Assembly (NCBI GenBank): GCA_045804885.1
Contig: JBJMMH010000091.1
Coordinates: forward strand, 1-45,189
Direction of reading: 5' to 3'
Source of the DNA: Chloroflexota bacterium
GTDB taxonomy: Bacteria > Chloroflexota > Limnocylindria > Limnocylindrales > CSP1-4
DNA: 45,189 bases
Below, piece by piece: positions 9,834-36,800 of the stretch. The number at the start of each line of letters is the position of its first letter. Positions within the stretch are counted from its first letter, which is position 1. Made by a program: the position numbers and the translations under genes. The notes beneath the pieces were generated by a model, which searched no databases, was not told the DNA's origin, and was given only the letters and a program-made list of their open reading frames with translations.

Positions 9834-10226
9834 CTACACCGCCGGCTCGCGCCGGAAGACGCCGACCGCGGCAAGGATCAGCGCCTCGAGCAGCGTCCAG
9901 CCGATCAGGGCGAGGATCGCCGCGACGTCGAGGACAGAGCCGCCGGACTGCAGCGCGTTCGTGTTCAACATGCCCTCGAACGGAGCCACGAAGATCTGGC
10001 TCGCGTTGAGCACCCAGGAGACCAGGTCGTTGCCTTCGCGGGCGTCCATCAGGAGGAACACGATCCGCAGCAGGATCAGGACCTGGATGATCCCGAACAG
10101 CAGGATCACGATCCGGCTTGCGACGGCGCCACCGCTCGGTCGGGCCGTAACGGTGCGGCGGCTTACCCGGGTGTCACCGTCGACGTAGTCGTCATCGTGG
10201 ACGACCGTTCTCTCGTCGTATGTCAT
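9834..10226 (-). CDS. YggT-family membrane protein
   Basis: Pattern LILLRIVFLL...N.LV..V...S..FVAPF with hydrophobic helices. GGAGG SD. Confidence 0.82.
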   Translation of the reverse strand: MTYDERTVVHDDDYVDGDTRVSRRTVTARPSGGAVASRIVILLFGIIQVLILLRIVFLLMDAREGNDLVSWVLNASQIFVAPFEGMLNTNALQSGGSVLDVAAILALIGWTLLEALILAAVGVFRREPAV

Positions 10227-10275
10227 TACTCACAACCTCCCATCCAGGCACCCACCGCACACGGCGGGAACCTGC

Positions 10276-10341
10276 AGCGTGCGTCCCACCGGGGTACACG
10301 GCCGCAAGGCGCCCGGTCGGGCGCCTTGCAGTGGGGTGTCG
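10276..10341 (-). promoter_or_regulatory. Direct-repeat box + -10 (YggT gene)
   Basis: CGACAC-CCCAC-TGCAAG (10325-10341), 43 nt, CACGCT (10276-10281). Confidence 0.6.
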
Positions 10342-10378: not shown

Positions 10379-11170
10379 TCAGCCGACCGCCGCCGCCTCG
10401 CTGCGCGCCGAAGCGGTCGTGCTCGCAGCGGAATCCTCGGTGTCGGCGTCGGCCGCGTCGCCGCCCGAGCTTTGCCCCGGGCCTTCCACGTCGAGCAGGT
10501 AGCCGATGCCCTGGAACGTCTTGATCCGGCCCGGCTCGCCCGGCTTGGCGCCAAGCTTGCGGCGCACTCGGCTGATCCAGACCCGCAGGTACTGGAGATC
10601 GTCGCGGTACTCGGGGCCCCAGACCTTCGTGAGGAGTTCCGTGTGCAGGACGACCTTGCCGGGGTGCGTGGCGAGGTGCTGCAGGAGCAGCCACTCGGTT
10701 CGCGACAGCTGGACGAGCTCGCCGTTCCGGCGAACCATCCGACGCTCGAGGTCGATCTCGATGTCGTCGAAGGCGAGGACACCGGCGCCGGGCTCGACTC
10801 CCGACGAGCGTCGGATGACCGCGCGAACGCGGGCCGCGAGCTCGTCCGGGTGGAACGGCTTCGCGATGTAGTCGTCGGCGCCTAGGTCGAGACCCTTCGC
10901 CTTGTCGGCGGTCGCGCCCTTCGCCGTGAGCAGGATGACCGGGACCGGCCGCTGCTCGCGCAGCTGGCGCATGACCTCGATACCGTCGAGGTCGGGCATG
11001 ACGATGTCCAGCAGGACGATGTCCGGGCGGACTTCCTCCGCCTTGGCGAGGGCGTCCTCTCCCCCTGTCGCGGTCACGACGCGGAACCCCTCCTCGCTGA
11101 GGGCGATCGAGACGAGCTTTGTGATTCGAGGCTCGTCATCCGCGACGAGGACGAGTGGTTGCGTACCCAC
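10379..11170 (-). CDS. OmpR/PhoB-family (KdpE-like) response regulator
   Basis: REC domain (ADDE, LLDIVMP, LLTA, IAKPF) plus winged helix (LLTKVWGPEY...YLRVWISRVRRKL...GIGY). No adjacent kinase or kdp genes. Confidence 0.95.
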   Translation of the reverse strand: MGTQPLVLVADDEPRITKLVSIALSEEGFRVVTATGGEDALAKAEEVRPDIVLLDIVMPDLDGIEVMRQLREQRPVPVILLTAKGATADKAKGLDLGADDYIAKPFHPDELAARVRAVIRRSSGVEPGAGVLAFDDIEIDLERRMVRRNGELVQLSRTEWLLLQHLATHPGKVVLHTELLTKVWGPEYRDDLQYLRVWISRVRRKLGAKPGEPGRIKTFQGIGYLLDVEGPGQSSGGDAADADTEDSAASTTASARSEAAAVG

Positions 11171-11260: not shown

Positions 11261-11491
11261 TTACGGGGCCGCGGATCCACCGCCCGGCAGCGCTGGCTGG
11301 CTCGCAGCAGGCGGGTTGATCGTCGTGTTGTTGTTGTTGGTCGTCGTCCCACCGGATCCGGGTCCGAGGGCGAAGTACCAGACGGCGATGAGCAGCACGA
11401 CGATGCCGATGATCCCGAGGATCATGCCCATGCTCGAGCTGCCGCCGGAGTCGTCGACGACGACGGTGTCGTGATCGTGTTCGTGGGTCAT
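11261..11491 (-). CDS. Small single-pass membrane protein
   Basis: MTHEHDHDTVVVDDSGGSSSMGMILGIIGIVVLLIAVWYF, then an Asn/Thr/Pro tail. AAGGAGA SD. Confidence 0.75.
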   Translation of the reverse strand: MTHEHDHDTVVVDDSGGSSSMGMILGIIGIVVLLIAVWYFALGPGSGGTTTNNNNTTINPPAASQPALPGGGSAAP

Positions 11492-11571: not shown

Positions 11572-11638
11572 ATCCTCGGTCACGCGTCGTCGCGGCCAGG
11601 GGGGCCCGACATTGCAGAACCGTTACGGGGGCATATCA
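11572..11638 (-). promoter_or_regulatory. Triple direct-repeat box + -10 (small TM gene and response regulator)
   Basis: TGATAT-GCCCC-CGTAAC-GGTTC-TGCAAT (11611-11638). GAGGAT (11572-11577) lies 44 nt from the second half-site. Confidence 0.65.
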
Positions 11639-11719
11639 ATTCGGACGGATCAGGCACGTCGCCGTTTCGGCGCCAGAGGGTCTCGTCCGCCGCCGGGGCA
11701 ATCGCGCTACGCTGGCCCC

Positions 11720-12085
11720 GTGAGCTATTCGAGCGAGGATCTGGGGGCCCTGGCCGATGCCGAGGAGGTCGAGATCGAGACCCAGGCGCCCGAGGGCCCC
11801 AGCCACCGGACCGTGATCTGGATCGTCGTCGACGATGGCGAGGCCTTCGTCCGCACCTACAAGGGGCCAGGCAGTCGGTGGTACCGCGAGGCGATCGCGA
11901 ATCCGGCGGTCGCCCTCCACGTCCGTGGTCGACGGCTCGCCTCGACCGCGATCCCAGCCACGGACCCCGATTCGATCGACCGCGTCAGCGCTGCGTACCG
12001 CCGGAAGTACGCTGCCGACCGCGCGACGGACGCTATGGTCGCGGCCTCCAATCTCCCGACGACGCTCCGGCTCGAGCCCGCCTGA
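11720..12085 (+). CDS. DUF2255 / split-barrel family protein
   Basis: Pattern EVEIET...TVIWIV...FVR...SRWYR...TTLRLEP. Leaderless GTG 6 nt after TACGCT (11708-11713). Confidence 0.75.
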   Translation: MSYSSEDLGALADAEEVEIETQAPEGPSHRTVIWIVVDDGEAFVRTYKGPGSRWYREAIANPAVALHVRGRRLASTAIPATDPDSIDRVSAAYRRKYAADRATDAMVAASNLPTTLRLEPA

Positions 12086-12101
12086 CCACGAGGGTCCCGT
12101 C

Positions 12102-14783
12102 ATGTACTTCGACGAGTTCAAGCACCAGCTGCCCGACATCGACACCGACGAGACGAACGACTGGCTGGCGTCGTTCGACCAGCTCGTCGAGCAGGAGGGC
12201 GAGAGCCGCGCCCGGTTCATCGTCTACAAGCTGCTCAAGCGGGCGCGTCAGCTCCACGTCGGGCTGCCGCCGCTGACCCAGACGCGCTACATCAACACGA
12301 TCAGCCCCGAGCAGGAGCCCTTCTTCCCGGGCGACGAGGCGATCGAGCTCCGCATCCGCCGGATCATCCGCTGGAATGCCGTCGCGATGGTCCTCCGAGC
12401 GAACAGCCGGTTCAGCGGGATTGGCGGGCATCTCGCGACCTACGCCTCCGCCGCGAGCCTCTACGAGGTGGGGTTCAACCACTTCTTCCGGGGGAAGGAC
12501 GACGGCCAGATCGGTGACCAGATCTTCTACCAGGGCCACGCAGCGCCCGGTATCTACGCCCGGGCGTTCCTCGAAGGTCGGCTGAGCGAGGGCCAGCTCG
12601 ACCACTTCCGGCGAGAGTCCGTCCCCGGCGAGGGCCTGCCGTCCTACCCCCATCCGCGGCTCATGCCGGACTTCTGGGAGTTCCCGACGGTCTCGATGGG
12701 AATAGGGCCGATCAGCGCGGTGTACCAGGCGCGGTTCAATCGCTACCTCCAGAACCGCGGCCAACTCGACACGTCAGGCTCGCGTGTGTGGGCCTTCGTC
12801 GGCGATGGTGAGACAGACGAGCCCGAAACCCTCGGGGCGCTCCACGTTGCCTCCCGGGAGGGCCTCGACAACCTGACGTTCGTCGTGAACTGCAACCTCC
12901 AGCGACTGGACGGCCCCGTGCGCGGCAACGGCAAGATCATCCAGGAGCTCGAGTCCGCGTTCCGCGGTGCCGGCTGGAACGTCATCAAGGTCATCTGGGC
13001 CCGGGAGTGGGACGAGCTGCTCGCCCGTGACGTCGACGGCGTCCTCGTCCAGAAGATGAACGACACGCTCGACGGCGAGTTCCAGAAGTACTCGGTCGCG
13101 GGCGGCGCGTACATCCGGGAGCACTTCTTCGGGCCGGATCCGCGCCTGCGCAAGCTCGTCGAGCACCTGTCCGACGACGACCTTGCCAAGCTCCGCCGCG
13201 GCGGCCACGACTACCGCAAGGTCTACGCCGCCTACAAGGCCGCCACCGAGTACAAGGGCGCGCCGACGGTGATCCTCGCCAAGACCGTCAAGGGCTGGAC
13301 GCTGGGCCCCGGCGTGGAGGCCCGCAACATCACCCACCAGGCGAAGAAGCTGTCCGAGGCCGAGCTCACGATCTTCCGGGATCGCCTCGAGCTTCCTATC
13401 CCGGACGCGAAGCTCAAGGACGCGCCGTACTACCACCCCGGCCCCGACTCCGAGGAGGTCCAGTACCTCCGCGAGCGGCGCAAGGCGCTGGGTGGCTCGA
13501 TCCCGAGACGCGTCGTCCGATCGAAGCCGCTGCCGGCGCCGGCGGAAGGCGTCGACAAGGAGTTCGCGGCCGGCTCCGACACGCCGGTCTCGACGACTAT
13601 GGTCTTCACCCGGATCCTCCGGAACCTGATCCGCGACAAGGAGCTGGGACCGCGGATCGTGCCGATCATCCCGGACGAGGCGCGGACGTTCGGCATGGAT
13701 CCGCTCTTCAAGGAGGTCGGGATCTACGCCGCCCTCGGCCAGCGCTACGAGCCGGTCGACTCCGACCTCGTGCTGAGCTACCGGGAGGCTGTCGACGGCC
13801 AGGTCCTCGAAGAGGGCATCACCGAGGCGGGCTCGATGGCCTCGCTCCAGGCGGCCGCAACCTCGTACGCGTCACTCGGCCACCCCACGATCCCGTTCTA
13901 CATCTTCTACTCGATGTTCGGGTTTCAGCGGACGGGCGACCAGATCTGGGCGCTGGGCGACGCCCGCGGCCGCGGCTTCATGATGGGCGCGACCGCCGGC
14001 CGGACGACCCTGACCGGCGAGGGTCTCCAGCACGACGACGGTCATACCCACATCCACGCCTCGACCGTCCCGAACTGCCGGCCCTACGACCCTGCCTACG
14101 CCTACGAGCTGGCGGCCATCGTCCGCGACGGCATCGAGCGGATGTATTCGAAGGGCGAGGACGTCTTCTACTACATCACGATCTACAACGAGAACTACGC
14201 CCAGCCGCCCAAGCCCGACGGAGTCGACGAGGGCATCATCCGCGGCATCTACCGGCTCCGCGAGGCGCCCGACCTGGGCCGGAAGGCGCATCGGGCCCGG
14301 CTCGTCGGATCCGGCTCGATCCTCCAGCAGGCCGTCGCCGCCCAGGAGCTCCTCGCCGAGAAGTTCGGCATCGCCGCCGAGGTCTACTCGGCGCCCTCGT
14401 TCCCGCTGCTCCGCCGAGACGCGCTCGAGGCCGAGCGCTGGAATCGGCTCCATCCGGACGAGGCGCCGCGCATCCCGTACGTCGCTCAGGTCCTCGGCCC
14501 CGACGGTGGGCCGATCATCGCCGCAACCGACTGGCTGAAGGCGCTGCCCGACATGGTCTCGCGTTGGCTCCCGCCGTACTACGTCTCGCTGGGAACGGAC
14601 GGCTTCGGCCGCAGCGACACCCGCGAGGCGCTCCGGTCGCTGTTCGAGATCGACGCGCCGCACATTGCCGCGGCGACGCTCGCCGAGCTGGCCCGGTGTG
14701 CCGCGATGCCGGCGCCGAAAGCCGCCGCCGGCATCCGCGAGCGGGGGATCGAGCCAGACAAGCTGGACCCGGTCGCGCTCTAG
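12102..14783 (+). CDS. aceE: Pyruvate dehydrogenase E1, homodimeric type
   Basis: Motifs YINTI, GGHLATYAS, FPTVSMG, GDGETDE (TPP), NLQRLDGPVRGN, PDEARTFG, YSMFGFQR, GEGLQH, GTDGFGRSD. Confidence 0.97.
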   Translation: MYFDEFKHQLPDIDTDETNDWLASFDQLVEQEGESRARFIVYKLLKRARQLHVGLPPLTQTRYINTISPEQEPFFPGDEAIELRIRRIIRWNAVAMVLRANSRFSGIGGHLATYASAASLYEVGFNHFFRGKDDGQIGDQIFYQGHAAPGIYARAFLEGRLSEGQLDHFRRESVPGEGLPSYPHPRLMPDFWEFPTVSMGIGPISAVYQARFNRYLQNRGQLDTSGSRVWAFVGDGETDEPETLGALHVASREGLDNLTFVVNCNLQRLDGPVRGNGKIIQELESAFRGAGWNVIKVIWAREWDELLARDVDGVLVQKMNDTLDGEFQKYSVAGGAYIREHFFGPDPRLRKLVEHLSDDDLAKLRRGGHDYRKVYAAYKAATEYKGAPTVILAKTVKGWTLGPGVEARNITHQAKKLSEAELTIFRDRLELPIPDAKLKDAPYYHPGPDSEEVQYLRERRKALGGSIPRRVVRSKPLPAPAEGVDKEFAAGSDTPVSTTMVFTRILRNLIRDKELGPRIVPIIPDEARTFGMDPLFKEVGIYAALGQRYEPVDSDLVLSYREAVDGQVLEEGITEAGSMASLQAAATSYASLGHPTIPFYIFYSMFGFQRTGDQIWALGDARGRGFMMGATAGRTTLTGEGLQHDDGHTHIHASTVPNCRPYDPAYAYELAAIVRDGIERMYSKGEDVFYYITIYNENYAQPPKPDGVDEGIIRGIYRLREAPDLGRKAHRARLVGSGSILQQAVAAQELLAEKFGIAAEVYSAPSFPLLRRDALEAERWNRLHPDEAPRIPYVAQVLGPDGGPIIAATDWLKALPDMVSRWLPPYYVSLGTDGFGRSDTREALRSLFEIDAPHIAAATLAELARCAAMPAPKAAAGIRERGIEPDKLDPVAL

Positions 14784-15778: not shown

Positions 15779-16231
15779 ATGGGACACCACGACATGGATC
15801 CGGGTCACGGCGAGCCGGGCCACGTCCACGACGAGAACTGGAACCGCACGACGACCGGCGCCGGGTATGACACGACGCTTGGCGACCGGACTGCCGTCGA
15901 GAACGAGGAAGGCGGCAAGGAGGCTCTCGGCGCTGGGGCGGGTGCGCTCGCCGGCGCCGGCGCCGGTATGGCGGTCGGCGGTCCTCCCGGAGCGGTCGTC
16001 GGCGGCGCGATCGGCGCGGTCGGCGGCGCCGTCGCCGGTGAGGCGACCGAAGGCGACGACGAGGCCGGCTCCGGTGCCGGTGGACTCGCGGGTGGCGTTG
16101 GCGGCGCGGTCGTCGGTGGCGCGGTGGCGGGTCCTCCGGGCGCGGTCGTCGGCGGCGCGGTCGGCGCGGCCGGCGGCGCCGGCGCGGGCGACCAGGCGGA
16201 AGAAGAGACCGAGGAGAACGACGCGGTCTAG
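15779..16231 (+). CDS. Glycine-zipper membrane protein with internal duplication
   Basis: Two GxxxG-rich repeats, each containing GPPGAVVGGA.GA.GGA, with acidic linkers. AAGGAG SD. Confidence 0.8.
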   Translation: MGHHDMDPGHGEPGHVHDENWNRTTTGAGYDTTLGDRTAVENEEGGKEALGAGAGALAGAGAGMAVGGPPGAVVGGAIGAVGGAVAGEATEGDDEAGSGAGGLAGGVGGAVVGGAVAGPPGAVVGGAVGAAGGAGAGDQAEEETEENDAV

Positions 16232-16333
16232 ACCGACCGGTAGCTCCGCCGTTCCTCGCGCGGCCGGTTGCGCCATCGCGGTGCAGCCGGCCGCTCGCGC
16301 CCGAGGAGGAGGGTTCCGCTGGAGGAAGCACCA

Positions 16334-17500
16334 ATGCCAAATCGACTCCGGATCGCCCAGGTCGTGCCCCCAATCGAGCGCGTCCCGCCGACCGGCTACG
16401 GCGGCACGGAGCGAGTGGTGTTCGAGCTCGTCCGCGAGCTGGTCGCACGCGGCCACGACGTCACTACGTTCGCCTCCGGGGATTCCGAGGTCCCCGGTCG
16501 TCTCGTACCGACGGTGCCGGAGGCACTCCGCCCAGGCGGGTACGGCGACGACCCGTCAAATTTCATCAACGCAACGGTCCTGGACGTCCTCGACCGCGCC
16601 GACGAGTTCGACATCATCCACAGCCACCTCGAGTGGTCGAGTGTCCTGTTCAGCCGGGCAACCACTGTTCCCGTTGCCGCGACATTCCACGGCCGGCTCG
16701 ACCTTCCGTGGGCCAGGGCCCTCCTTCGCGCCGCGGATTCGACGTGGCTCGTCGCGATCAGCGACTCGCAGCCGCGCGACCACCCCGACGCCGACTGGAC
16801 TGTCGTTCACAACGGCCTGACGCTGTCCGGCGCGCCATTCGAACGCCGCCGCAGCGACGATCTCTGCTTCATCGGCCGCATCGCGCCCGAAAAGGGTGTC
16901 GCCGACGCCGTCGAGGTCGCGCTCAAGACCGGCCGCCACCTCAAGATCGCGGCAAAGATCGGCCCGACGGCGGCCGAACGGGACTACGAAGAGAACATCT
17001 TCCGGCCGGCCCTCAAGCGGGGCGGGTCGCTCGTCGAGTACGTGGGCGAGGTCTCAGGCGAGGAGCGCGATATGATCGTGGCGTCCAGCTACGCCACGTT
17101 GATGCCCGGGTCGTGGCCAGAGCCCTTCGGCCTGGTCGCGATCGAATCGCTGGCCTGCGGGACGCCCGTCCTCGCTCGCCGCGTCGGGGGCCTGCCCGAG
17201 ATCATCCGGGGCGGCGTCGACGGCTTCTTCGGTGACGACGTGACCCAGCTCGCATTCAGCGTCCCGCGCGTCGCTGGTCTCGATCGCGAGGCGATCCGGG
17301 CGTCCGTCATCGAGCGCTTCTCGGCGGCCCGCATGGCCGATGGCTACGAGGCCTTATATCGCCGGATGCTGGCGACCGACTCCGTCGAGGACGACGCGGC
17401 GTCGAGCGGTAGCGGCAGCGCCCGGGTGGACGGCGGCACGACGCGCGAGCGAGTCGTCGACATGACCACCCGACGCAGCGGAACGGGCGCCGCGTCCTAG
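16334..17500 (+). CDS. Glycosyltransferase family 4 (GT-B)
   Basis: Motifs PP.GYGGTE, DIIHSH, VHNG, GRIAPEKG, EPFGLVAIESLACGTPV. GGAGG SD. Confidence 0.93.
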   Translation: MPNRLRIAQVVPPIERVPPTGYGGTERVVFELVRELVARGHDVTTFASGDSEVPGRLVPTVPEALRPGGYGDDPSNFINATVLDVLDRADEFDIIHSHLEWSSVLFSRATTVPVAATFHGRLDLPWARALLRAADSTWLVAISDSQPRDHPDADWTVVHNGLTLSGAPFERRRSDDLCFIGRIAPEKGVADAVEVALKTGRHLKIAAKIGPTAAERDYEENIFRPALKRGGSLVEYVGEVSGEERDMIVASSYATLMPGSWPEPFGLVAIESLACGTPVLARRVGGLPEIIRGGVDGFFGDDVTQLAFSVPRVAGLDREAIRASVIERFSAARMADGYEALYRRMLATDSVEDDAASSGSGSARVDGGTTRERVVDMTTRRSGTGAAS

Positions 17501-27189: not shown

Positions 27190-27235
27190 GGGCCGACCAT
27201 TCGTACGCGGTGACGGTTGGCAACGCCTGGCCGGC

Positions 27236-27376: not shown

Positions 27377-27505
27377 ATGTTGAGAATTCAGCCGGCGAGT
27401 GCCGAGCGCGAGGACGCGCCGGATGACCCGGCCATGCACATAATCGAGGTCGGACTGGCGATCGTCGCGATCGTCGCCGCGGGGATCCTCGCCCTGCTCC
27501 GATGA
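27377..27505 (+). CDS. 42-aa single-TM microprotein coupled to corA
   Basis: GAGGG SD and a C-terminal TM (IIEVGLAIVAIVAAGILALLR). ATGA overlap with the corA start. Confidence 0.6.
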   Translation: MLRIQPASAEREDAPDDPAMHIIEVGLAIVAIVAAGILALLR

Positions 27506-31400: not shown

Positions 31401-32742
31401 CGTTCGAGATCGCAAGGGCGGCGCGCTGCGCGAGCTCCGCGGTGACGTCGAGATCGGCGCTCGTGTACGCCCGATCCGGACCAACCCCGAAGAACATCGC
31501 GCCGATAGCCTCACCCTTGGCGAGCAGCGGCTGGACGATCATGCTCCGGGCGTCGATGGCCGTGACGATGGCGGCAAGGTCGTCGACCTCGCCGGTCGCC
31601 CGACGGAGATCGACGGGGTCGTTCAGGTTCTCGACCAGGACGGGCCGATGGGTCCGGACGACGCGAGCCGCCGGCTCCCTCGAGGCGGCCCCGATCGGGA
31701 GGTCGCCGATCGGGTCGAGGATTGCCTGCCGGACCGCATCGGCGGCGACCGCGGCCACAGGCCTGAGGGAGCCATCGGGATCGACGAGGTCGATCAGGCA
31801 CCAATCGGCAAGGTCCGGAATCCCAACTGCGGCTGCCGCCTCGATCGTCCCGGCGAGATCGCTCGATTCGTCGAGCCGAAGGCCGGCGTCGGCGACGAGG
31901 CGAGCCAGCTCGGCTGCGCGCTTCCGGCTCGAGCGCTCTTCATCGATGTCCGTGGCGGTTCCGATCCAGCCCTCGAGGACGCCGCCTTCACGGCACCGCG
32001 GGACGATCCGGACGACATGCCAGCGGTACGTGCCATCGTGGCGGCGGAGGCGGACCGTCGCGTCGAGAGACTCCTCCGCCGACTGCGCCGTCGACCAGGC
32101 CGCCTCGAGCTCGGCTCGGTCCTCGCCGTGGACGTGATCCAAGGACGGGAATCTGCCACTGGCCGCGATCGCGCCCGTGTAGGCGAACCAGCGGCCGTTC
32201 GCCGCTGCCAGGTGCCCCTCGGGATCCGACAGCCAGGCTACGACGGGCAGCGCCTCGACGATCTCACGGTAGCGGCGCTCGCCCGCGAGGCTGGCCTGCC
32301 CGGCCTCGATCTGCGAGGTCATCTCGTGGAACGTCGAGACCACGAACCGCTCGCCGTGCGGCGCGCCGTCCACAAGCCGCCCACGGACCAGGGACCAGCG
32401 CATGACGCCGGTGTGGCGATGCCGAAAGCCGACGACGAGCGGGTCCGGACGGTCGCCCGCGAGCACCCGCCGGCCAGGGAGGCGAGCCGGATCGAGCGCT
32501 GCCCCGGACTCGTCGACGATGTCGAACCGATCCAGCGTCTCCTGCGGAGAGGCCGCGAGCATCTCCTCGGGGCTCGCCCAGCCGCACAGCTCCGCCGCCT
32601 CCTGGTTCGCGAACACGACTCGGAGGTTCGTGTCCTGGACGGTGATGCCCGCGTCGATCGCCTCGAGGATCCAGGCCATCGGCTCGCCGAGCAACATCGG
32701 CGCTCCAGTCGCGTCCTGTGGCTCGACGACTCGCTGGCCCAC
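28474..32742 (-). CDS. Large cytoplasmic multi-PAS/GAF sensor histidine kinase
   Basis: About five PAS and three GAF segments. SHELRTP H-box; intact NLLSNAAKY, DDGPG, FELF and GAGIGL boxes. No TM helix seen. Confidence 0.95.
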   Translation of the reverse strand: MGQRVVEPQDATGAPMLLGEPMAWILEAIDAGITVQDTNLRVVFANQEAAELCGWASPEEMLAASPQETLDRFDIVDESGAALDPARLPGRRVLAGDRPDPLVVGFRHRHTGVMRWSLVRGRLVDGAPHGERFVVSTFHEMTSQIEAGQASLAGERRYREIVEALPVVAWLSDPEGHLAAANGRWFAYTGAIAASGRFPSLDHVHGEDRAELEAAWSTAQSAEESLDATVRLRRHDGTYRWHVVRIVPRCREGGVLEGWIGTATDIDEERSSRKRAAELARLVADAGLRLDESSDLAGTIEAAAAVGIPDLADWCLIDLVDPDGSLRPVAAVAADAVRQAILDPIGDLPIGAASREPAARVVRTHRPVLVENLNDPVDLRRATGEVDDLAAIVTAIDARSMIVQPLLAKGEAIGAMFFGVGPDRAYTSADLDVTAELAQRAALAISNAQVHAAEQEARRAAEGAAERLERLQRVTRELATESTRDGVVALIVREGREAFGASGSVMAILGEPGLSVVEAVGYDPDSVASMGSIPLDSRLPLAVATRTATPVWLSDLREAEADDELGASVIASSPNRSVCAVPLIADGITFGALGLSFAETRAFTEVERNHIGAYADLCAQALARVALTNIRERLVGDLEAERARLEELLQQAPEGLLIAEAPTGRIVLANDRIEEIVRIPKAELLHRIAGGEAYRGYDESGRELQPEDWPLARAVRGETVPYQEIELERPDGSRTWVAKRAGPVLDRDGGVVAGVATIIDISAVRLARENRRILTTASEVFASSLDYEDTIRRVAETVVPTIADWVAVDVLDDKGVPRRLAVAHDDPAKVAKALELAERYPPDPDAPRGTAYVLRTGQPDMDFEVTDEMLAAAAVDEEQLEIIRWLGLRSWLCVPIVAGDQTLGAITLVAAESGRRFGPEDVGFAENLAARVALAISNAKAFREAVRYKRVLDATLDAVVVFDPATLRISYVNQGVQDQLGYAAEDLVGADATKVVVELDAIGLRGLVEPLVTGTMDARTATLSYRHKDGRTVPVEVLLQHVTPAGEVGRIVAVARDVGDRLEAQANLRRLAESEHARAAELNAVIRAIGDGIFVCDADGRISLSNPAAEAMFPDVHEQTYEEILEQVDDPEGEAPRLGEIGAPVELRARAPEERWIELSTYPVVREPDDGDGGEPPPETIVMLRDVTAGRKAQAIRDTFIGVLSHELRTPVTTIYAGSKVLSRDGDQLPDETRREIFSDIVVESERLHRLVEDVIAMTRFGEDEGDVGTEPVLVQRILPAVIRSERARWPGVTFELNMRPGLPTAIADPTYVEQVVRNLLSNAAKYGGVGTTVRVDVDSDAEEVTVRVIDDGPGFPEEEVDRVFELFFRSRGTAATAAGAGIGLFVCARLIRAMGGRIWASPLPDGGSEFAFTLRVMAEEV

Positions 32743-32869: not shown

Positions 32870-34105
32870 TCAGTCGGAGGCCGGTGCCTGCTTGGGCATT
32901 GATGGCGGCGCGTCGGCGGGTCGCTCCTCACGGCGGTCGGCCGACTTCCTGGCCCGCTCCGTCCGCCCCGAGCGCTCCGCCCGCGTCCCGGATGACCTCG
33001 CCGTCGCGCCCGCCGAGAGCGAGTCGTCATCGGCCTCGTTGCGGTCCGGGGCGGAGGCCGGATCCTGCGCGACCGGGACTTCGCGCGCCTGGAGTCCCTC
33101 GATGAGGACCTCGACGGTGGCCGCGATCGGGACGGCCAGGAGCGCGCCGACGAAGCCGCCGGCGGCCGCACCCGCGAGGACGCTGAAGAGGACGAGGAAC
33201 GGCGAGATGCCGACCGTGTTCCGCATCACGATCGGCACGAGGACGTTGCCCTCGATGAGCTGGAGGACGACGTAGACGCCGACGACGGCGAGCGCGAGCT
33301 GGGGTGAGACGGTGAGCGCCACGATCACCGCGGGGATCGCCCCGAGGAGCGGTCCGATGATCGGGATCGCCTCGGCGAGGGCCGTGATCAGGCCGAGGAG
33401 GAGCGCGGACGGTACCCCAAGGAGGGTGTACGCCACGGCCGTCCCGATCCCGATCGTCGCCATGAGGATCAGCTGGCCGCGGACCCACCGGCCCAGCCGC
33501 GTCTCGGCCGTATTCCAGACGTCGCGTGCCCGCGCCCGTCGGCCGGGGGGCACGAACGCGAGGGCGTAGCGCTGGAGCCGGGCGTGCTCTGTCAGCCAGA
33601 AGTAGACGACGGTCAGCAGCGTCAGGATCGACATGACGGCGGCCGCGATCGAGATCCCGACGGCGACGACCTCCTCGCCTGCGGGCGGGACGTCGGTCTG
33701 AGGCAGGGACCGTGCCGCGACCGTGATCACGGACGTGACCGTCCGGCCGACGATCGCCGGCTGGAGCGTCCCTGCCCAATCTCGCGCCTGCTCGAGGAAC
33801 GGCGGCAGCGCCCCGACCGCGTCGCCGAACTGGTCGACCGCGGCCGGAACCACGACCAGGGCGAACCCGATCACGATCGCCAGGAACATCCCGTAGACGA
33901 GCAGGATCGCGGCGCCGCGGCCGATGCGCAGGTAGCCGCGGAGCCACGACACGATGGGCTGCAGGCCCGCGGCGAGGATGACGGCGACGAACATCAGTAC
34001 GAGCACGGCGCCGGCCGCCCACGCGAAGGCGAGAACCGCGACGACCAGCGCCACGCCGATCGCCACGCCGGCGCCTCGCAGAATCCACGGGGCGAGTCCC
34101 GTCAT
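32870..34105 (-). CDS. AI-2E family (UPF0118/PerM) transporter
   Basis: Multiple TM helices; WVRGQL, IPIIGP, QLIEGNVLVP, GALLAVP. Confidence 0.92.
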   Translation of the reverse strand: MTGLAPWILRGAGVAIGVALVVAVLAFAWAAGAVLVLMFVAVILAAGLQPIVSWLRGYLRIGRGAAILLVYGMFLAIVIGFALVVVPAAVDQFGDAVGALPPFLEQARDWAGTLQPAIVGRTVTSVITVAARSLPQTDVPPAGEEVVAVGISIAAAVMSILTLLTVVYFWLTEHARLQRYALAFVPPGRRARARDVWNTAETRLGRWVRGQLILMATIGIGTAVAYTLLGVPSALLLGLITALAEAIPIIGPLLGAIPAVIVALTVSPQLALAVVGVYVVLQLIEGNVLVPIVMRNTVGISPFLVLFSVLAGAAAGGFVGALLAVPIAATVEVLIEGLQAREVPVAQDPASAPDRNEADDDSLSAGATARSSGTRAERSGRTERARKSADRREERPADAPPSMPKQAPASD

Positions 34106-34112
34106 GGCCGCA

Positions 34113-36800
34113 TCACGGTTTCGGTTTGGCCGTCGGCGCAGGGTCGTTGCCGCCGCCGCCACCGCCGCCGTCGCCTCCGCCGCCGGGGGGCGGGCTGCCG
34201 TGGCCCGGCGGTTCCTCCTTCGGCGGCTGCGGCGCCGGCTTCGGCTTGGGCTTGGGCTTGTAGCAGGGCCCGACGATCGTTCCGCCCCACGATCGCTTGC
34301 TCCAGAAATACGCCGTCCGCGAGTCGTGCGGGCCCCTGACGCCTGGACCCCGGCGTGCTCGCACCAGCCAGTTCTCGACGTCGCCGTCCCACGCTCGCGG
34401 TCCCAGCTCCGCCTTGAGCGGGTCGACCCGCCAGCCGCCGCAGGCTGCCCTGTAGAGGAGCCCGTCCCGGTCGATCGCGTGTCGTCCACCGGGCTGGGTG
34501 CCGCTGATGAACAGCTCCTTGACCCGGTCGCGCGTCCACGGCCCGACCCGCCCACCGGACCACGCATCGATCGTCGCCGACACGATGCCCTTGGGTTTCG
34601 CGAAATTCGTGATCGGCGTCTTGGCCGTCACGTCGCGGACGAAGGAGCGCCAGAGCGGCGCCGCGGCGGTCAGCGAGATCGCCGGCTTCCGGGAAACCGG
34701 GTTGGAGTGATCGCTGTTGCCGAGCCAGACCCCGACCGCGAGTGCCGGCGCCGCGGCGTCCTTCGGCGGCGGGAGATAGCCGTACGTCGCCAGGTCGCGC
34801 GCCTCGTTCGCCGTTCCCGTCTTGACTGCGGCCGGCCGGTGCTCCCCTTTGGGGCCGTTTCGGAGCTCCAGGGCGGCCGACCAGATCGGGTTCTGGCGGG
34901 GGTCGGTGTTGCCGGCGAGGATGTTCGTAACGAGGTAGGCCGCCTGCGGACTCACGGCCTGGACCGCCTCGGGATCCGGTGCCTTGTAGATCGTCCTGCC
35001 TGACGAATCGCGGACCTCGAGGATCATCCGCGTGGGAACGTGGGCGCCGCCATTGGCGAGCGCGCCGTAGGCCGACGTGAGGTCGAGCGGCCGCACTTCG
35101 ACCGTCCCGAGTGCTCCCGCAAGCCCGGCCTGGAGATAGGCGTCGCGACCGCCATGGAAGCGGATGCCCATCGCCTGGGCGCGGTCGGCGACGGCCTCGC
35201 TGCCGGTCCGGGCGAGCGCCCGGATCGCCGGAATGTTGAGCGAGTACTGAAGGGCCTTTCGGACGAGGACGGGACCGCGCTCGAGCTGGTCGGCGTCGCG
35301 TGGCGCCCAGTCCTCTCGGCGGTTGAACTCCGTCGTGATATCGAGGAGGAGGCTGCCCGGTGTGAGCTTGCCCGTGTCGAAGGCGCTCGCATACAGGATC
35401 GGCTTCCAGGCAGACCCGGGCTGACGCTCGCCGTCGCCGGCGACGTCGTACTTGGGTTCGAACTTGCGGGTGGCGAGCGATTCTTCGTAGTAGCCCGCGC
35501 TGCCGGCGTACGCGACGACGTCACCGGTGCGGTAGTCGAGGGCTACGAGCGAGCCGTTGTGGAGGTCCTTCCCGCGCAGCGCATTGATCCAGCGCCGGTC
35601 GGAGGAGCCGATCTTCAAGCTCCTGAGGAGCCGTGCGCTCGACGCGCGCTTGAGATTCGGTGCGATAACCGCGGCCTTCAGCCAGCGTTCGGCCTGTTGC
35701 TGCATCTTCCAGTCGAGCGTCGTGATCACCGTGTAGCCGCCCGTCTCGATTGGTGGCCCGTCGCCGACGATCGCCTCGAGCTGGCGGCGGACCTGCCACG
35801 TGAAATGTGGCGCCTGGAAGGCGATCGGCTGGTCTCCGGCGAGGACGACCGGCTCTGCGAGCGCCGCCGCGAGGGCCGCCGGCGAGAGCGTCGTCCAGCG
35901 CGACGTCGAGAGGTTCTGGAGGATGTAGTTCCGGCGCGCGACCGGCGGCGCGGACGCCGGCACGACGAGCTTGCCGTCGGCATCGCGGACGGCGTACCGG
36001 TAGGGGTCGAGGGTGGATGGCGACTTGGGCAGACCCGCCAGCAACGTCGCCTGGGCGGGCGTCAGATCGGCGAGGTCGCCGACGCCGAAGTAGATCTGGG
36101 CGGCGGCGGCGATGCCGTAGGCGTCGTGGCCGTAGAAGATCTGATTGAGGTAGGCCGTGACGATCTGCTCCTTGCCGGCCTCGCCCGGGAACATGTCGGT
36201 GACGCGCGACGCCTGGAGCAGCTCCTTGGCCTTGCGGATGTAGCGGTCCGCGCCATCGGCCGTCACGTTCTCCGGCAGCAGCCGGGCCCGTACGAGCTGC
36301 TGCGTGATCGTGGACGCGCCTCTCTCGCTGTCGCCGCTCGCGTTCTGGGCGATCGCCGACACGATGGCGCCCGGATCGAACCCGGCGTTCTGCCAGAAGG
36401 TCCGGTCCTCGGCGGTCGTCGTTGCGTCGAGGACGAGCTTGGGCACGTCGTCGTACGCGACGACGCGGCGCTTCTCCTGCTGGAACAGGCCCAGTTGGAC
36501 GGTCCCGGTTCGATCGTAGACGACCGTCGGCTGGGAGAAGGTGAGCTTGCCGAGGGTTGAGGGATCCGGCAGGTCCGTCGACAGGACGGCAACGGCGGCA
36601 GTCGCAGCGAGTCCGAGGCTGCCGGCGGCGACGACGATGATGACGAGCGGGATCAGCAGGAGGACGAGGAGAATCCGGGGGCCGTTCCGCCCGGGGCGCT
36701 CGTGACGTGACGCCCGGCGCCGTACGATCGTCGCCCAGCTGGAGCCGGCGGCAAGGCGCCGCGCATAGCGCGACCGGGCATAGCCCTGACGGGTATACAC
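34113..36800 (-). CDS. Class A penicillin-binding protein (transglycosylase-transpeptidase)
   Basis: TG motifs AEDRTF, GASTITQQL, RKAKE, YLN. TP motifs SAWK, SLN, KTG. N-terminal TM and Pro/Gly tail. Probable leaderless GTG at 36800. Confidence 0.95.
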   Translation of the reverse strand: MYTRQGYARSRYARRLAAGSSWATIVRRRASRHERPGRNGPRILLVLLLIPLVIIVVAAGSLGLAATAAVAVLSTDLPDPSTLGKLTFSQPTVVYDRTGTVQLGLFQQEKRRVVAYDDVPKLVLDATTTAEDRTFWQNAGFDPGAIVSAIAQNASGDSERGASTITQQLVRARLLPENVTADGADRYIRKAKELLQASRVTDMFPGEAGKEQIVTAYLNQIFYGHDAYGIAAAAQIYFGVGDLADLTPAQATLLAGLPKSPSTLDPYRYAVRDADGKLVVPASAPPVARRNYILQNLSTSRWTTLSPAALAAALAEPVVLAGDQPIAFQAPHFTWQVRRQLEAIVGDGPPIETGGYTVITTLDWKMQQQAERWLKAAVIAPNLKRASSARLLRSLKIGSSDRRWINALRGKDLHNGSLVALDYRTGDVVAYAGSAGYYEESLATRKFEPKYDVAGDGERQPGSAWKPILYASAFDTGKLTPGSLLLDITTEFNRREDWAPRDADQLERGPVLVRKALQYSLNIPAIRALARTGSEAVADRAQAMGIRFHGGRDAYLQAGLAGALGTVEVRPLDLTSAYGALANGGAHVPTRMILEVRDSSGRTIYKAPDPEAVQAVSPQAAYLVTNILAGNTDPRQNPIWSAALELRNGPKGEHRPAAVKTGTANEARDLATYGYLPPPKDAAAPALAVGVWLGNSDHSNPVSRKPAISLTAAAPLWRSFVRDVTAKTPITNFAKPKGIVSATIDAWSGGRVGPWTRDRVKELFISGTQPGGRHAIDRDGLLYRAACGGWRVDPLKAELGPRAWDGDVENWLVRARRGPGVRGPHDSRTAYFWSKRSWGGTIVGPCYKPKPKPKPAPQPPKEEPPGHGSPPPGGGGDGGGGGGGNDPAPTAKPKP

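What the first reader, a model, noticed from the sequence alone, without database searches (positions are those of the whole stretch)
9834..36800. General-stress gene set apparently driven by a two-component system rather than a stress sigma factor
SEEN: box-bearing units encode CsbD-like, GlsB/YeaQ/YmgE, ElaB/YqjD-like, YggT, hemerythrin-like, glycine-zipper (+GT4), TopIB, CorA, ABC-2 exporter, PBP/AI-2E and several microproteins. They also include all three signalling genes (regulator, large kinase, degenerate kinase). No sigma factor is encoded in the window. KNOWN: CsbD is SigB-controlled in Bacillus, ElaB/YqjD are RpoS-controlled in E. coli, and GlsB is a general stress protein in Enterococcus. 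INFERENCE: this is a physically clustered, self-regulating stress or dormancy regulon that uses housekeeping-type -10 elements plus an OmpR-type activator. I am not aware of such a system being described for this kind of organism.
Basis: inference. Interest (0 to 1): 0.8.

Follow-up and report, generated by a model that had tools for sequence, protein, structure and literature searches.

The report
Two-component stress regulon island, soil Chloroflexota
An uncultured soil bacterium carries a gene cluster in which one response regulator, through a repeated DNA box placed at a fixed distance upstream of ordinary promoters, probably switches on about fifteen small membrane, stress-type and cell-wall genes plus a new small RNA.

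Summary
The window is contig C91 of a Chloroflexota MAG (Candidatus Limnocylindrales). The box is real. It is a 17-bp direct repeat, CTGnnA-N5-CTGCAA. The strict pattern hits 5 times against 0.32 expected. A weight matrix puts 9 of 22 genome hits of 17 bits or more in this 1.4% of the genome.

The box lies 43-45 nt upstream of TAnnnT -10 elements. These are the same type as the genome's generic leaderless promoters.

Box and geometry are conserved in 10 same-genus genomes. The box also sits upstream of the OmpR-family regulator's own operon. A box pattern occurs 30 times in 8 genomes with the regulator and once in 8 without it.

No SigB/F/G-type sigma factor was found in 6 genomes. Each has a second primary-like sigma, so independence from a stress sigma is unproven.

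The 'CsbD-like' and 'ElaB-like' labels fail the family models. I found no correctly oriented box for the ABC exporter in any genome. For CorA there is one, in 1 of 10 genomes.

Verdict: a real, partly clustered two-component regulon. The stress role is inferred.

The parts
10379..11170 (-). OmpR/PhoB-family response regulator (263 aa), proposed master regulator
   Evidence: Pfam Response_reg 108.8 bits and Trans_reg_C 72.4 bits. 88-97% identical in 21 of 24 same-genus genomes (the count includes unpublished G010). Below every NCBIfam equivalog cut-off; the best is RpaB, 215 against 330.
11612..11639 (-). Tandem boxes (three half-sites at 11-bp phasing) upstream of mic56-RR
   Evidence: Matrix hits of 22.1 and 16.7 bits. 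Assigned to mic56 or RR in 8 of 10 genus genomes; the same sequence is present but unassigned in G013. A box lies 80-450 nt upstream of RR orthologues in 9 of 14 loci at 73-93% RR identity and in 1 of 5 at 53-61% (L093).
11261..11431 (-). mic56, a 56-aa membrane microprotein upstream of RR
   Evidence: Gene call. Orthologues in 4 of 9 relatives. RNA-library contigs reach 11550.
9834..10226 (-). YggT-like membrane protein, with its box at 10326-10342(-)
   Evidence: Pfam YGGT 21.8 bits, below the cut-off. Box 15.8 bits. Box conserved in 5 of 10 genomes.
15779..17500 (+). Glycine-zipper protein plus GT4 glycosyltransferase, with a weak box at 15655-15671(+)
   Evidence: Pfam. The window box scores 11.7 bits, below my threshold. 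G023 has a 14.9-bit box.
20124..20140 (+). Box of TopIB; the box end plus 57 nt falls on the start codon at 20197 (leaderless)
   Evidence: 13.5 bits. Box in 8 of 10 genomes; the distance is exactly 57 in 4 of them. The start codon was called without reference to the box.
20197..21372 (+). Bacterial type IB topoisomerase
   Evidence: Pfam Topoisom_I 125.9 bits and Top1B_N_bact 92.3 bits.
21354..22442 (-). HK2: PAS-HisKA kinase with a degenerate ATP-binding domain; box at 22527-22543(-)
   Evidence: Pfam. H-box kept; N, G1 and G2 boxes lost. Box 14.1 bits, present in 2 of 10 genomes.
22559..22575 (+). Box of the hemerythrin-DZR unit
   Evidence: 17.0 bits. Present in 3 of 10 genomes.
22665..23707 (+). 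Hemerythrin (152 aa) plus double-zinc-ribbon membrane protein (180 aa)
   Evidence: Pfam Hemerythrin 78.3 bits and DZR 35.4 bits. The two genes are 41 nt apart.
23782..23988 (-).
   Evidence: No CsbD hit in Pfam or NCBIfam. Falls among unnamed Chloroflexota clusters in the Atlas. RNA-library contigs from 3 studies cover it.
24079..24095 (-). Box A, serving the 68-aa gene; -10 TACGGT at 24029-24034(-), 44 nt downstream of the box
   Evidence: Footprint alignment of 10 genomes. Strict pattern hit. Box in 8 of 10 genomes.
24104..24120 (+). Box B, serving the 132-aa gene; -10 TACGGT at 24165-24170(+), 44 nt downstream of the box
   Evidence: 22.8 bits. Box and TAnnGT are conserved in 10 of 10 genomes.
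24221..24619 (+).
   Evidence: Only a weak YtxH hit, E 0.011. Atlas lead DUF883_C at 0.79.
24894..24910 (-). Box of a new small RNA; -10 TACGAT at 24843-24848(-)
   Evidence: 21.0 bits. A box of 17.6-25.7 bits is present in 10 of 10 genomes.
24705..24837 (-). Conserved structured sRNA of about 120-130 nt with C-rich, anti-Shine-Dalgarno-like stretches
   Evidence: About 100 nt are nearly invariant across 10 genomes while the flanks vary. Three hairpins; hairpin 2 shows compensatory changes. No Rfam hit overlaps it at E up to 1.
25118..25471 (-). p117, an unknown 117-aa protein; box at 25528-25544(-); the box end plus 57 nt falls on the start codon
   Evidence: The window box scores 9.7 bits. 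Four relatives have a box exactly 57 nt from the start, with TAGnnT -10 elements.
25638..25919 (-). GlsB/YeaQ/YmgE-type (Transgly_assoc) membrane protein
   Evidence: Pfam 41 bits. 81-97% identical in 9 relatives. Box in 8 relatives; the window copy is degenerate at 8.4 bits. Covered in all 4 RNA runs.
26177..26193 (+). Box of mic80 (26289-26531, 80 aa)
   Evidence: 17.0 bits. Present in 4 of 10 genomes, each with a conserved GGTATGG 19 nt downstream of the box.
26587..26850 (+). Box (26587-26603) plus an unannotated structured transcript ending in a terminator-like hairpin
   Evidence: 20.0 bits. Similar boxes in 5 genomes. Hairpins are conserved between the window and G004.
27174..27190 (-). 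Box facing a putative 59-aa lipoprotein (26867-27046, -); -10 TACGGT 44 nt downstream of the box
   Evidence: 20.5 bits. Strict pattern hit. It faces away from mic68-CorA.
27502..28470 (+). CorA (not shown to be box-driven)
   Evidence: Pfam 158 bits. A correctly oriented box only in G016, upstream of mic68 (1 of 10 genomes).
28474..32697 (-). HK1: a 1407-aa sensor kinase with multiple PAS and GAF domains and an intact catalytic core; box at 32840-32856(-)
   Evidence: Pfam. All catalytic boxes present. Box 21.3 bits, present in 3 of 10 genomes. HK1-like kinases lie next to or near RR orthologues in L086, L091 and L092.
32870..36800 (-). Class A PBP (34113-36800) plus AI-2E-family transporter (32870-34066), a probable operon
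   Evidence: Pfam Transgly 150 bits and Transpeptidase 70.7 bits; AI-2E 206 bits. The two genes are 46 nt apart.
36857..36873 (-). Box of PBP; the box end plus 57 nt falls on the GTG start at 36800 (leaderless)
   Evidence: 23.8 bits, the best in the window. Box in 6 of 10 genomes.
11720..14783 (+). DUF2255 plus AceE (pyruvate dehydrogenase E1): backbone genes, not box-driven
   Evidence: Pfam. No correctly oriented box in 10 genomes. Kept in the regulator-less genome G256.
17547..19918 (-). ABC-2 exporter (permease plus ATPase): no box in its orientation
   Evidence: Pfam. 0 of 10 genomes have a matrix hit of 13 bits or more.

Best explanation
The cluster is the core of a two-component regulon in an uncultured soil Chloroflexota lineage (Candidatus Limnocylindrales).

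Proposed mechanism:
1. The large cytoplasmic PAS/GAF kinase HK1 senses an intracellular cue. This is an inference.
2. HK1 phosphorylates the OmpR-family regulator at 10379-11170. The degenerate paralogue HK2 keeps the phospho-accepting histidine but has no ATP lid. It probably acts as a phosphatase or modulator. Both roles are inferences.
3. The phosphorylated regulator binds head-to-tail to an 11-bp-phased direct repeat, CTGnnA-N5-CTGCAA. The box and its geometry are shown. The binding is an inference.
4. The box ends 44 nt before a TAnnnT -10 element. That places its centre near -65. A few sites use a spacing of 20-22 nt, near -43.
5. From there the regulator would recruit RNA polymerase to promoters that lack any -35 element. 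This is an inference.

In the window this would switch on about 13-16 units:
- its own operon (mic56-RR);
- both kinases;
- small membrane and hydrophilic proteins (GlsB type, a 132-aa anchored protein, a 68-aa hydrophilic protein, YggT-like, a glycine zipper, microproteins);
- a hemerythrin, TopIB and a class A PBP with an AI-2E transporter;
- a new sRNA of about 120 nt.
It would also act on some 8-13 sites elsewhere in the genome.

The most likely physiological role is a stress, quiescence or envelope-remodelling programme. That reading rests only on the gene content.
For: BOX:
- Strict pattern 5 hits against 0.32 expected.
- Matrix hits of 17 bits or more: 22 in the genome, 9 of them in the window, against 5 in a reversed-genome control.
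- 37 of 38 hits of 15 bits or more are intergenic, in a genome that is 90% coding.

GEOMETRY:
- 7 of the 38 sites carry TAnnnT at N43-45. Only 5 TAnnnT occur at all other offsets listed.
- The box end plus 57 nt equals the independently called start codon for TopIB, PBP and p117.
- The generic -10 of this genome is TAnnnT 12-13 nt before the start codon of 164 of 888 genes without a Shine-Dalgarno. These promoters have no -35 consensus.

CONSERVATION:
- Footprint in 10 genomes.
- Per-unit counts: ElaB-like 10 of 10; CsbD-like 8; TopIB 8; GlsB 8; mic56/RR 8 (plus G013, unassigned); PBP 6. The sRNA promoter is 10 of 10.

LINK TO THE REGULATOR:
- A box lies upstream of RR orthologues in 10 of 19 loci at 53-93% identity (9 of 14 at 73% or more).
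- The box pattern is found 30 times in 8 genomes with the regulator (controls 8) and once in 8 without it (controls 3). This includes same-genus contrasts.
- G095 (with RR) has the blocks and 9 matrix hits. Its congener G256 (without RR) keeps the backbone, lacks the blocks and has 0 hits.

FAMILY FIT:
- OmpR/PhoB regulators bind direct repeat units (PMC11825685, passages).
- Upstream RpaB sites activate (PMC6525291, passages).

KINASE PAIRING: HK1-like kinases lie next to or near RR orthologues in L086, L091 and L092.

RNA LIBRARIES: contigs from 4 soil metatranscriptome studies cover pieces of 8 box units at 0-5 mismatches, or 8 mismatches for one RR piece. None of the listed pieces runs past a predicted start site. 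This is weak evidence: contigs only, and 32 of 1022 pieces were listed.
Against: - No binding, phosphotransfer or induction data exist.
- The matrix was trained on the window and its orthologues, so enrichment inside the window is partly circular.
- The motif is richer in A and T than the genome. That alone favours intergenic hits.
- The window regulator is only the fourth-best match in its own genome to the RpaB and YycF models. About a dozen OmpR-type paralogues could in principle bind the box.
- HK1 and HK2 are not a unique pair. Three further kinases share DHp domains at 45-55% identity.
- Boxes for HK1, HK2 and the hemerythrin are found in only 2-3 of 10 genomes.
- The window's own GlsB box is degenerate.
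- Several -10 hexamers of box promoters carry G at position 5, against 17% in generic promoters. This could point to another sigma factor.
- The 'stress' label is by analogy only.
- The co-occurrence result also fits simple co-inheritance of one island.
Confidence: 0.62

Rival explanations
1. A stress sigma factor is involved after all. The second primary-like (group 2, RpoS-like) sigma reads these promoters, and the regulator acts only as a co-activator. The regulon would then be sigma-dependent, with a two-component system layered on top.
For: Every genome checked has exactly two sigma factors with region 3; G004 has a third. Group 2 sigmas recognise -10 elements like those of the primary sigma (recalled). 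Box promoters often read TACGGT or TACCGT, with G at position 5. Generic promoters have G there in 17% of cases and C in 54%.
Against: No box of 13 bits or more lies upstream of a sigma gene. The one hit within 1.5 kb of a sigma match (C119, 14.3 bits) falls inside the match itself. Other box promoters use TACGAT, TAGGCT and GATCCT, like generic promoters. No SigB/F/G-type sigma is over the cut-off in 6 genomes.
Confidence: 0.22
2. The mechanism is the same, but the programme is cell-envelope homeostasis of the WalRK/MtrAB kind rather than a general stress or dormancy response.
For: [quoted passage not shown] Predicted targets include a class A PBP, glycosyltransferases (GT4, and GT2 on C150), a DPBB_1 lytic-transglycosylase-like protein on C186, a lipoprotein and many small membrane proteins. 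The regulator's best family scores are RpaB, MtrA, PhoB and YycF.
Against: The regulator is below all equivalog cut-offs, and another paralogue (C233) fits RpaB and YycF better. The kinases are multi-PAS/GAF proteins, and no WalK/MtrB model reaches its cut-off. The system is found in only 60 of 91 family genomes searched, so it is probably dispensable. Targets also include a hemerythrin, TopIB, an Fe-S assembly protein and an sRNA.
Confidence: 0.25
3. The box is bound by a different protein, either another OmpR-type paralogue or an unrelated factor. The window's regulator would be a target rather than the master.
For: The genome has about 12 full-length OmpR-type regulators. No experiment links this regulator to the box.
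Against: The box sits upstream of the regulator's operon across orthologues down to 57% identity. The box pattern is essentially missing (1 hit) from 8 genomes without this regulator, including congeners. The blocks and the regulator are lost together.
Confidence: 0.1
4. The regulator represses from the box instead of activating. The units would be de-repressed when the regulator is dephosphorylated.
For: Generic promoters here need only a -10, so box promoters with a good TAnnnT could fire unaided. RpaB both activates and represses, depending on position. The distal half-site of the RR box overlaps a TATCAA on the opposite strand, upstream of DUF2255-aceE.
Against: The boxes end 44 nt upstream of the -10, centred near -65. 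That is clear of the core promoter, and the spacing is fixed. Several box promoters have weak -10 hexamers such as CACGCT, CACCAT and GATCCT, which fits dependence on an activator.
Confidence: 0.12

Closest known systems
DosS/DosT-DosR dormancy regulon of Mycobacterium tuberculosis (abstracts only; details recalled)
   Same: Two related cytoplasmic sensor kinases with GAF domains feed one response regulator. That regulator controls a dormancy regulon.
   Different: DosR is a NarL/LuxR-type regulator that binds a palindrome (recalled). Here the regulator is OmpR-type and the site is a direct repeat. One kinase here has a dead ATP lid. The gene content differs, and here the regulon sits largely in one accessory cluster.
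RpaB and its HLR1 motif in cyanobacteria (PMC6525291, passages)
   Same: An OmpR-type regulator binds a pair of direct repeats of the TTACA type (read on the other strand, TGTAA). Upstream sites activate. Small RNAs belong to the regulon. RpaB is the regulator's best NCBIfam match, at 215 bits.
   Different: HLR1 has a 10-bp period (8 + 2), and activating sites centre near -51. Here the period is 11 bp and the centre is near -65. The score is below the RpaB cut-off of 330, and another paralogue scores higher. The targets are not photosynthesis genes.
WalR (YycF/VicR) of Firmicutes (PMC4168254, passages)
   Same: The consensus TGTWAH-N5-TGTWAH has the same half-site length, spacing and core as the box (TGyMAy-N5-TGCAAt). 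Cell-wall genes are among the targets.
   Different: The YycF model scores 187.5 bits against a cut-off of 340. There is no WalK-type kinase over its cut-off. The system is dispensable and patchy, found in 60 of 91 family genomes, whereas WalRK is described as essential in Firmicutes (abstracts).
SigB (Bacillus) and RpoS (E. coli) general stress regulons
   Same: A comparable assortment of small hydrophilic and membrane stress-type proteins, including a Transgly_assoc (YmgE/YeaQ) member.
   Different: No SigB/F/G-type sigma in 6 genomes. No SigB/F-type promoter consensus in the window. The promoters are defined by an activator box plus a generic -10. The CsbD and ElaB family memberships are not met.
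PhoP of M. tuberculosis and other OmpR/PhoB regulators (PMC11825685, passages; PDB hits)
   Same: Among the closest solved relatives by sequence: MtrA, RegX3 and PhoP, at E about 1e-48. They bind direct repeat units.
   Different: They are not orthologues. The regulons and kinases differ.

Membership tests
OmpR/PhoB-family response regulator | Receiver domain plus C-terminal winged-helix Trans_reg_C domain | tested here: met
   Response_reg 108.8 bits and Trans_reg_C 72.4 bits. The acidic-pocket and phospho-site motifs DDEPRITK, DIVMPDLD and DDYIAKPF are present in the query.
OmpR/PhoB-family response regulator | Binds direct repeats with a period of about 10-11 bp | not testable with these tools
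   The box is an 11-bp-phased direct repeat and co-occurs with the regulator. Binding itself was not tested.
WalR/YycF, MtrA or RpaB equivalogs | Score above the NCBIfam equivalog cut-off | tested here: not met
   RpaB 215 against 330; MtrA 204.9 against 300; YycF 187.5 against 340. A paralogue on C233 scores higher.
WalRK / MtrAB | Cognate WalK- or MtrB-type kinase | tested here: not met
   HK1 scores 159.5 against 725 for WalK and 107.3 against 450 for MtrB. HK1 and HK2 are PAS/GAF proteins.
SigB/SigF/RpoS-type general stress regulon | A dedicated stress sigma factor encoded in the genome | tested here: inconclusive
   The SigB/F/G model TIGR02980 is over its cut-off in 0 of 6 genomes. A second primary-like sigma with region 3 is present in all 6. 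Its role is unknown.
SigB/SigF/RpoS-type general stress regulon | Promoters carry the alternative sigma's consensus | tested here: not met
   GTTT-N12-17-GGGWAW (consensus recalled) gives 0 matches in the window. The box promoters carry TAnnnT, like generic promoters.
DosRST-type dormancy two-component system | NarL/LuxR-type regulator with GAF-domain sensor kinases | tested here: not met
   The regulator is OmpR-type. HK1 has GAF domains, but HK2 has PAS only. Whether any domain binds haem was not tested.
CsbD family (PF05532) | Match to the family model | tested here: not met
   No CsbD hit at E up to 1 in Pfam or 0.01 in NCBIfam for 23782-23988. The Atlas gives unnamed clusters.
ElaB/YqjD (DUF883) | Match to the family model | tested here: not met
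   Only YtxH, at E 0.011. The Atlas lead is DUF883_C at 0.79, on 12% of members.
GlsB/YeaQ/YmgE (Transgly_assoc) | Match to the family model | tested here: met
   PF04226, 41 bits against a cut-off of 25.3.
Histidine kinase, catalytically competent | H, N, G1 and G2 boxes | tested here: met
   HK1 has all four boxes. HK2 has only the H box, so it is degenerate.

The most novel reading that the evidence does not exclude
In soil Limnocylindria, which have no SigB/F/G-type sigma factor, the stress or quiescence programme is packaged as a self-contained accessory 'regulon island'. The island holds one autoregulated OmpR-type regulator, an active and a dead-lid kinase, an anti-Shine-Dalgarno-type sRNA and about 15 activator-dependent promoters, many of them leaderless. 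It is gained and lost as blocks on either side of aceE. The regulator's own box may also cover the -10 of the aceE promoter, which would couple the programme to a shutdown of pyruvate oxidation.
Probability: 0.25. Interest if true: 0.72.

Novelty: new variant of a known kind. Interest (0 to 1): 0.55.

Why it matters
Limnocylindria (the CSP1-4 family) are abundant soil bacteria with no cultured model, and nothing is known about how they regulate genes.

This work gives a testable regulon for the lineage:
- a defined cis-element;
- a strict promoter geometry;
- predicted start sites to the nucleotide;
- a candidate regulator and kinases;
- a new sRNA.

It also shows that this genome uses -10-only promoters and many leaderless mRNAs.

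If the stress reading holds, it would show how a lineage without a SigB-type sigma factor organises such a response. It would also show that the whole programme can behave as an accessory module. The principle, a two-component system driving a stress or dormancy regulon, is already known from DosRST and RpaB. The advance is therefore one of lineage and architecture, not of kind.

Tried and rejected
1. Blind motif search by dyad counting and a seeded EM gave nothing usable. The box came from eyeballing and the footprint alignment.

2. The strict pattern CTGNNANNNNNCTGCAA was too rare to separate genomes. I replaced it with TGNNAYGNNNNTGYAAY after testing 10 patterns on the own genome.

3. The sRNA was not found by BLAST in 5 genomes of other genera, including one that has the regulator. 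That test therefore said nothing.

4. The ElaB-like protein is too divergent to trace. It was found in 4 of 8 genomes with the regulator and 1 of 8 without. The small follow-up scan is only anecdotal.

5. Rfam gave no hit at gathering thresholds. At E up to 1 there were two weak hits, sX13 at E 0.11 and BSR0602 at E 0.19. I treat both as chance.

6. An ECF-like pattern, GGAAC-N15-18-CGTC, occurs at chance level: 5 hits against 4.7 expected, all inside genes.

7. RNA libraries. Several large neighbours (TopIB, ABC, DZR, most of HK2) had next to no cover in the four runs. Under the tool's own rules an uncovered part proves nothing, so I draw no conclusion about silence or DNA contamination. Depth over AceE is dominated by conserved sequence from other organisms. 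Contig ends that run into adapter-like letters at 25633 and 11407 were noted but not interpreted.

8. HK1/HK2 as a unique pair is rejected. Three more kinases have similar DHp domains.

9. I did not run complex prediction, structure prediction, fold search, the search for homologous proteins or the search of protein representatives. A kinase-regulator complex would probably pass by likeness to solved pairs.

10. Supplementary files of papers were not consulted. Supplementary data of PMC13212565 might list regulators of this lineage.

Full report
WHAT THE WINDOW IS. The window is contig C91 of a 3.13-Mb, 235-contig MAG that is 83% complete and about 70% G+C. Close relatives of its response regulator sit in MAGs labelled Candidatus Limnocylindrales, Chloroflexia or Chloroflexota, several of them from soil projects. 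A 2026 paper on this class separates a soil family, CSP1-4, from the streamlined freshwater Limnocylindraceae. In the passages I read it does not mention two-component systems or CsbD (PMC13212565). I called genes with a hexamer model trained on the genome's own long ORFs and named them with Pfam and NCBIfam.

CHECK OF THE OBSERVATION: GENES. Most named genes are there:
- OmpR-type regulator (10379-11170, -).
- A 1407-aa PAS/GAF kinase, HK1 (28474-32697, -).
- A 362-aa PAS kinase, HK2 (21354-22442, -).
- Hemerythrin, a Transgly_assoc (GlsB/YeaQ/YmgE) protein, a glycine zipper with GT4, TopIB, CorA, an ABC-2 exporter, and a class A PBP with an AI-2E transporter.
- YggT is a sub-threshold hit.

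The H-box is kept, but the N-box Asn, G1 and G2 are lost. HK1 has all four. None of the 39 Sigma70_r2 matches in the genome lies on this contig.

Two labels fail. The 68-aa 'CsbD-like' and the 132-aa 'ElaB-like' proteins match neither family model. In the Atlas they fall into unnamed Chloroflexota clusters.

THE BOX. An alignment of the divergent region between the 68-aa and 132-aa genes across 10 same-genus genomes shows two islands of near-invariant sequence in otherwise free DNA. Read in the direction of each gene, both are CTGnnA-N5-CTGnnA. The strict pattern occurs 5 times in the window against 0.32 expected, and all 5 are intergenic.

I trained a weight matrix on the window and nine syntenic regions, which makes it partly circular. 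Its consensus is yTGyMAyg-N3-cTGCAAtg.
- It finds 14 window hits of 13 bits or more. All lie between 10346 and 36877, and 13 of the 14 are intergenic.
- Genome-wide there are 22 hits of 17 bits or more. Nine are in the window, which is 1.4% of the genome. A reversed-genome control gives 5.
- 37 of 38 hits of 15 bits or more are intergenic in a genome that is 90% coding.

The motif is relatively rich in A and T, so composition explains part of this bias.

PROMOTER GEOMETRY. Seven of the 38 sites carry TAnnnT exactly 43-45 nt after the box. Only five TAnnnT occur at all other offsets listed, and three of those are at 20, 22 and 35 nt.

In orthologous promoters the same spacing recurs with TACGGT, TACCGT, TAGGTT, TACGAT or weaker nAnnnT hexamers.

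For TopIB, the PBP and p117, the box end plus 57 nt is exactly the start codon that my gene caller had chosen without knowledge of the box: 20140 to 20197, 36857 to 36800, and 25528 to 25471. The p117 box in the window scores only 9.7 bits. The same 57 nt recurs in 4, 3 and 4 genomes respectively. That fits leaderless mRNAs that start 7 nt after the -10.

An internal control supports this. Among 888 genes without a Shine-Dalgarno, TAnnnT starts at -12 in 104 genes and at -13 in 60. The 228 such promoters show no -35 consensus at all.

The box centre lies near -65. In the N20-22 class it lies near -43. These are activator positions, not operator positions.

WHICH UNITS CARRY THE BOX. One search counts genomes, out of 10, with a correctly oriented hit of 13 bits or more within 450 nt of the orthologue's start:

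| Unit | Genomes |
|---|---|
| ElaB-like | 10 |
| CsbD-like | 8 |
| TopIB | 8 |
| GlsB (not the window, whose copy is degenerate) | 8 |
| mic56 or RR | 8, plus G013 unassigned |
| PBP | 6 |
| YggT | 5 |
| p117 | 4 |
| mic80 | 4 |
| Hemerythrin | 3 |
| HK1 | 3 |
| HK2 | 2 |
| Lipoprotein | 2 |
| GlyZip, GT4, mic68 (leads into CorA), FTR1, p236 | 1 each |
| ABC operon, CorA directly, AI-2E, DZR, AceE, DUF2255 | 0 |

AI-2E and DZR probably ride in operons with the PBP and the hemerythrin. The ABC exporter is therefore not supported as box-driven, and CorA is supported only through mic68 in G016.

OUTSIDE THE WINDOW. 13 of 14 strong sites examined are intergenic. They precede these genes:
- a 69-aa protein that looks CsbD-like to me but has no Pfam hit;
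- a DUF6766 membrane protein;
- an MFS transporter;
- a cytochrome c;
- a GT2 glycosyltransferase;
- an Fe-S assembly protein;
- a DPBB_1 protein;
- two unknown proteins.

The regulon is therefore only partly clustered.

LINK TO THE REGULATOR. Four points.
(i) The regulator's own operon carries three phased half-sites. A box lies 80-450 nt upstream of RR orthologues in 9 of 14 loci at 73-93% identity, and in L093 at 57%.
(ii) Orthologues (E at most 1e-90) occur in 74 of 301 class genomes. By family: own family 60 of 91, f4 13 of 103, Limnocylindraceae 0 of 12, f3 0 of 92.
(iii) I chose eight genomes with the regulator and eight without, by regulator status alone. The pattern TGNNAYGNNNNTGYAAY occurs 30 times in the first group (backward control 8) and once in the second (control 3). 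This includes contrasts within genera g3, g4 and g5. Relatives are not independent, so I treat this as a pattern and not as a test.
(iv) In genus g5, G095 (with RR) has the whole arrangement and 9 matrix hits in 35 kb. G256 (without RR) keeps the backbone p300-p220-DUF2255-AceE-GT4...p431. It lacks RR, mic56, ABC, TopIB, HK2, both small proteins, GlsB, CorA, AI-2E and the PBP at that locus, and it has no hit in 37 kb.

The system therefore behaves as accessory blocks on either side of aceE.

HK1-like kinases lie next to or near RR orthologues in three other lineages. This supports the kinase-regulator pairing. However, three more kinases in this genome have similar DHp domains.

WHAT KIND OF REGULATOR. 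The closest solved relatives are MtrA, RegX3, M. tuberculosis PhoP and KdpE. The best family scores are RpaB, MtrA, PhoB and YycF, all below their cut-offs. Another paralogue (C233) fits RpaB and YycF better. So this is a distinct OmpR-family lineage, not the WalR/MtrA/RpaB counterpart. [quoted passage not shown] It also resembles RpaB's TTACA-type repeats, whose upstream copies activate.

THE SIGMA QUESTION. The own genome and five relatives, two of them 92% complete, each have two sigma factors with region 3. Both are primary-like. G004 has a third. None reaches the SigB/F/G cut-off. The own genome's other Sigma70_r2 matches, 37 of the 39, show no region 3. No SigB/F-type consensus (recalled) occurs in the window. 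No sigma gene sits behind a box.

A group 2 sigma would use similar -10 elements. Box promoters also show an unexplained preference for G at hexamer position 5.

EXPRESSION. Soil metatranscriptome assemblies from four studies hold near-identical pieces of YggT-like, RR, mic56, GlyZip, the hemerythrin, both small proteins and GlsB, the last in all four runs. The listed pieces stop 5-31 nt inside the predicted start sites and never beyond them. These are contigs, and only 32 of 1022 pieces were listed, so this is a weak hint.

A NEW sRNA. The box at 24894-24910(-) is present in all 10 genomes and precedes no ORF. It precedes about 100 nt of nearly invariant sequence that folds into three hairpins. 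Hairpin 2 shows compensatory changes. A terminator-like hairpin has the loop CCCCCUC, and a single-stranded CCCCGAUCCUC stretch lies before it. Rfam has no match overlapping it. A second orphan box at 26587-26603(+) precedes another structured transcript.

COMPARISON AND NOVELTY. Two-component systems that drive stress or dormancy regulons are well known: DosRST (abstracts) and RpaB. I found nothing on such a system in this lineage. The searches were 'Limnocylindria' (17 papers, listing read); 'Chloroflexota' with 'general stress response' and 'sigma factor' (1 unrelated paper); and 'Chloroflexi', 'OmpR', 'regulon', 'stress response' and 'direct repeat' (none of the 10 listed held 'Chloroflexi').

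I file this as a new variant of a known kind. It has a well-defined cis-element, a strict geometry, an accessory-island behaviour and a new sRNA. The stress function remains an inference from gene content.

Noticed in passing
window 24705-24837 (-): A new conserved structured sRNA of about 120-130 nt, driven by a box promoter. It has three hairpins and C-rich, anti-Shine-Dalgarno-like stretches (CCCCCUC loop, CCCCGAUCCUC). It is nearly invariant in 10 same-genus genomes, and no Rfam hit overlaps it.
   Followed up: partly
window 26587-26850 (+): A second orphan box promoter (20.0 bits) is followed by conserved hairpins and a terminator-like hairpin. This could be another sRNA or a small-gene leader. 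Similar boxes occur in 5 genomes.
   Followed up: partly
whole genome G000: Generic promoters are -10-only (gcTAnnnTc) with no -35 consensus. At least 164 of 888 genes without a Shine-Dalgarno have TAnnnT at -12 or -13 from the start codon, so leaderless mRNAs are common in this Chloroflexota genome.
   Followed up: yes
window 11612-11646: The distal half-site of the RR box (TTGATAT on the minus strand) reads TATCAA on the plus strand, 81 nt upstream of DUF2255-aceE. Regulator binding might cover a -10 of the pyruvate dehydrogenase E1 operon. The half-site is conserved in 8 of 10 genomes.
   Followed up: no
L185-L188 (G256 vs G095) against window 9000-39000: The box-bearing units and the regulator form accessory blocks on either side of a conserved DUF2255-AceE-GT4 backbone. 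They are missing from a congener that lacks the regulator. RR orthologues are found in 60 of 91 family genomes searched.
   Followed up: partly
window 21354-23123; L088: The dead-lid kinase HK2 and the hemerythrin are divergently transcribed from one region that carries a box in each direction. The same kinase-hemerythrin pair recurs in locus L088, which suggests a functional link such as O2, NO or iron sensing.
   Followed up: no
box promoters in the window and relatives: Many -10 hexamers of box promoters have G at position 5 (TACGGT, TACCGT). Generic leaderless promoters have G there in 17% of cases and C in 54%. The difference is unexplained. It could reflect another sigma factor or a contact with the activator.
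   Followed up: partly
G004:C7:121323-122003: One relative has a third sigma factor with region 3 (310-aa open frame, 95 bits on the SigB/F/G model, below the cut-off). It lies about 90 kb from the cluster on the same contig. The other five genomes checked do not have it.
   Followed up: no
window 25633 and 11407: RNA-library contigs from two runs (X15, X17) run straight into adapter-like letters at 25633, just past the GlsB stop. One X17 contig does the same at 11407. This hints at defined RNA ends there.
   Followed up: no
window 24944-25032 (-): A weak Rfam match to sX13, a Xanthomonas sRNA (23.7 bits, gathering 50, E 0.11). It covers the hairpin downstream of p117. Probably chance, or simply a terminator.
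   Followed up: no
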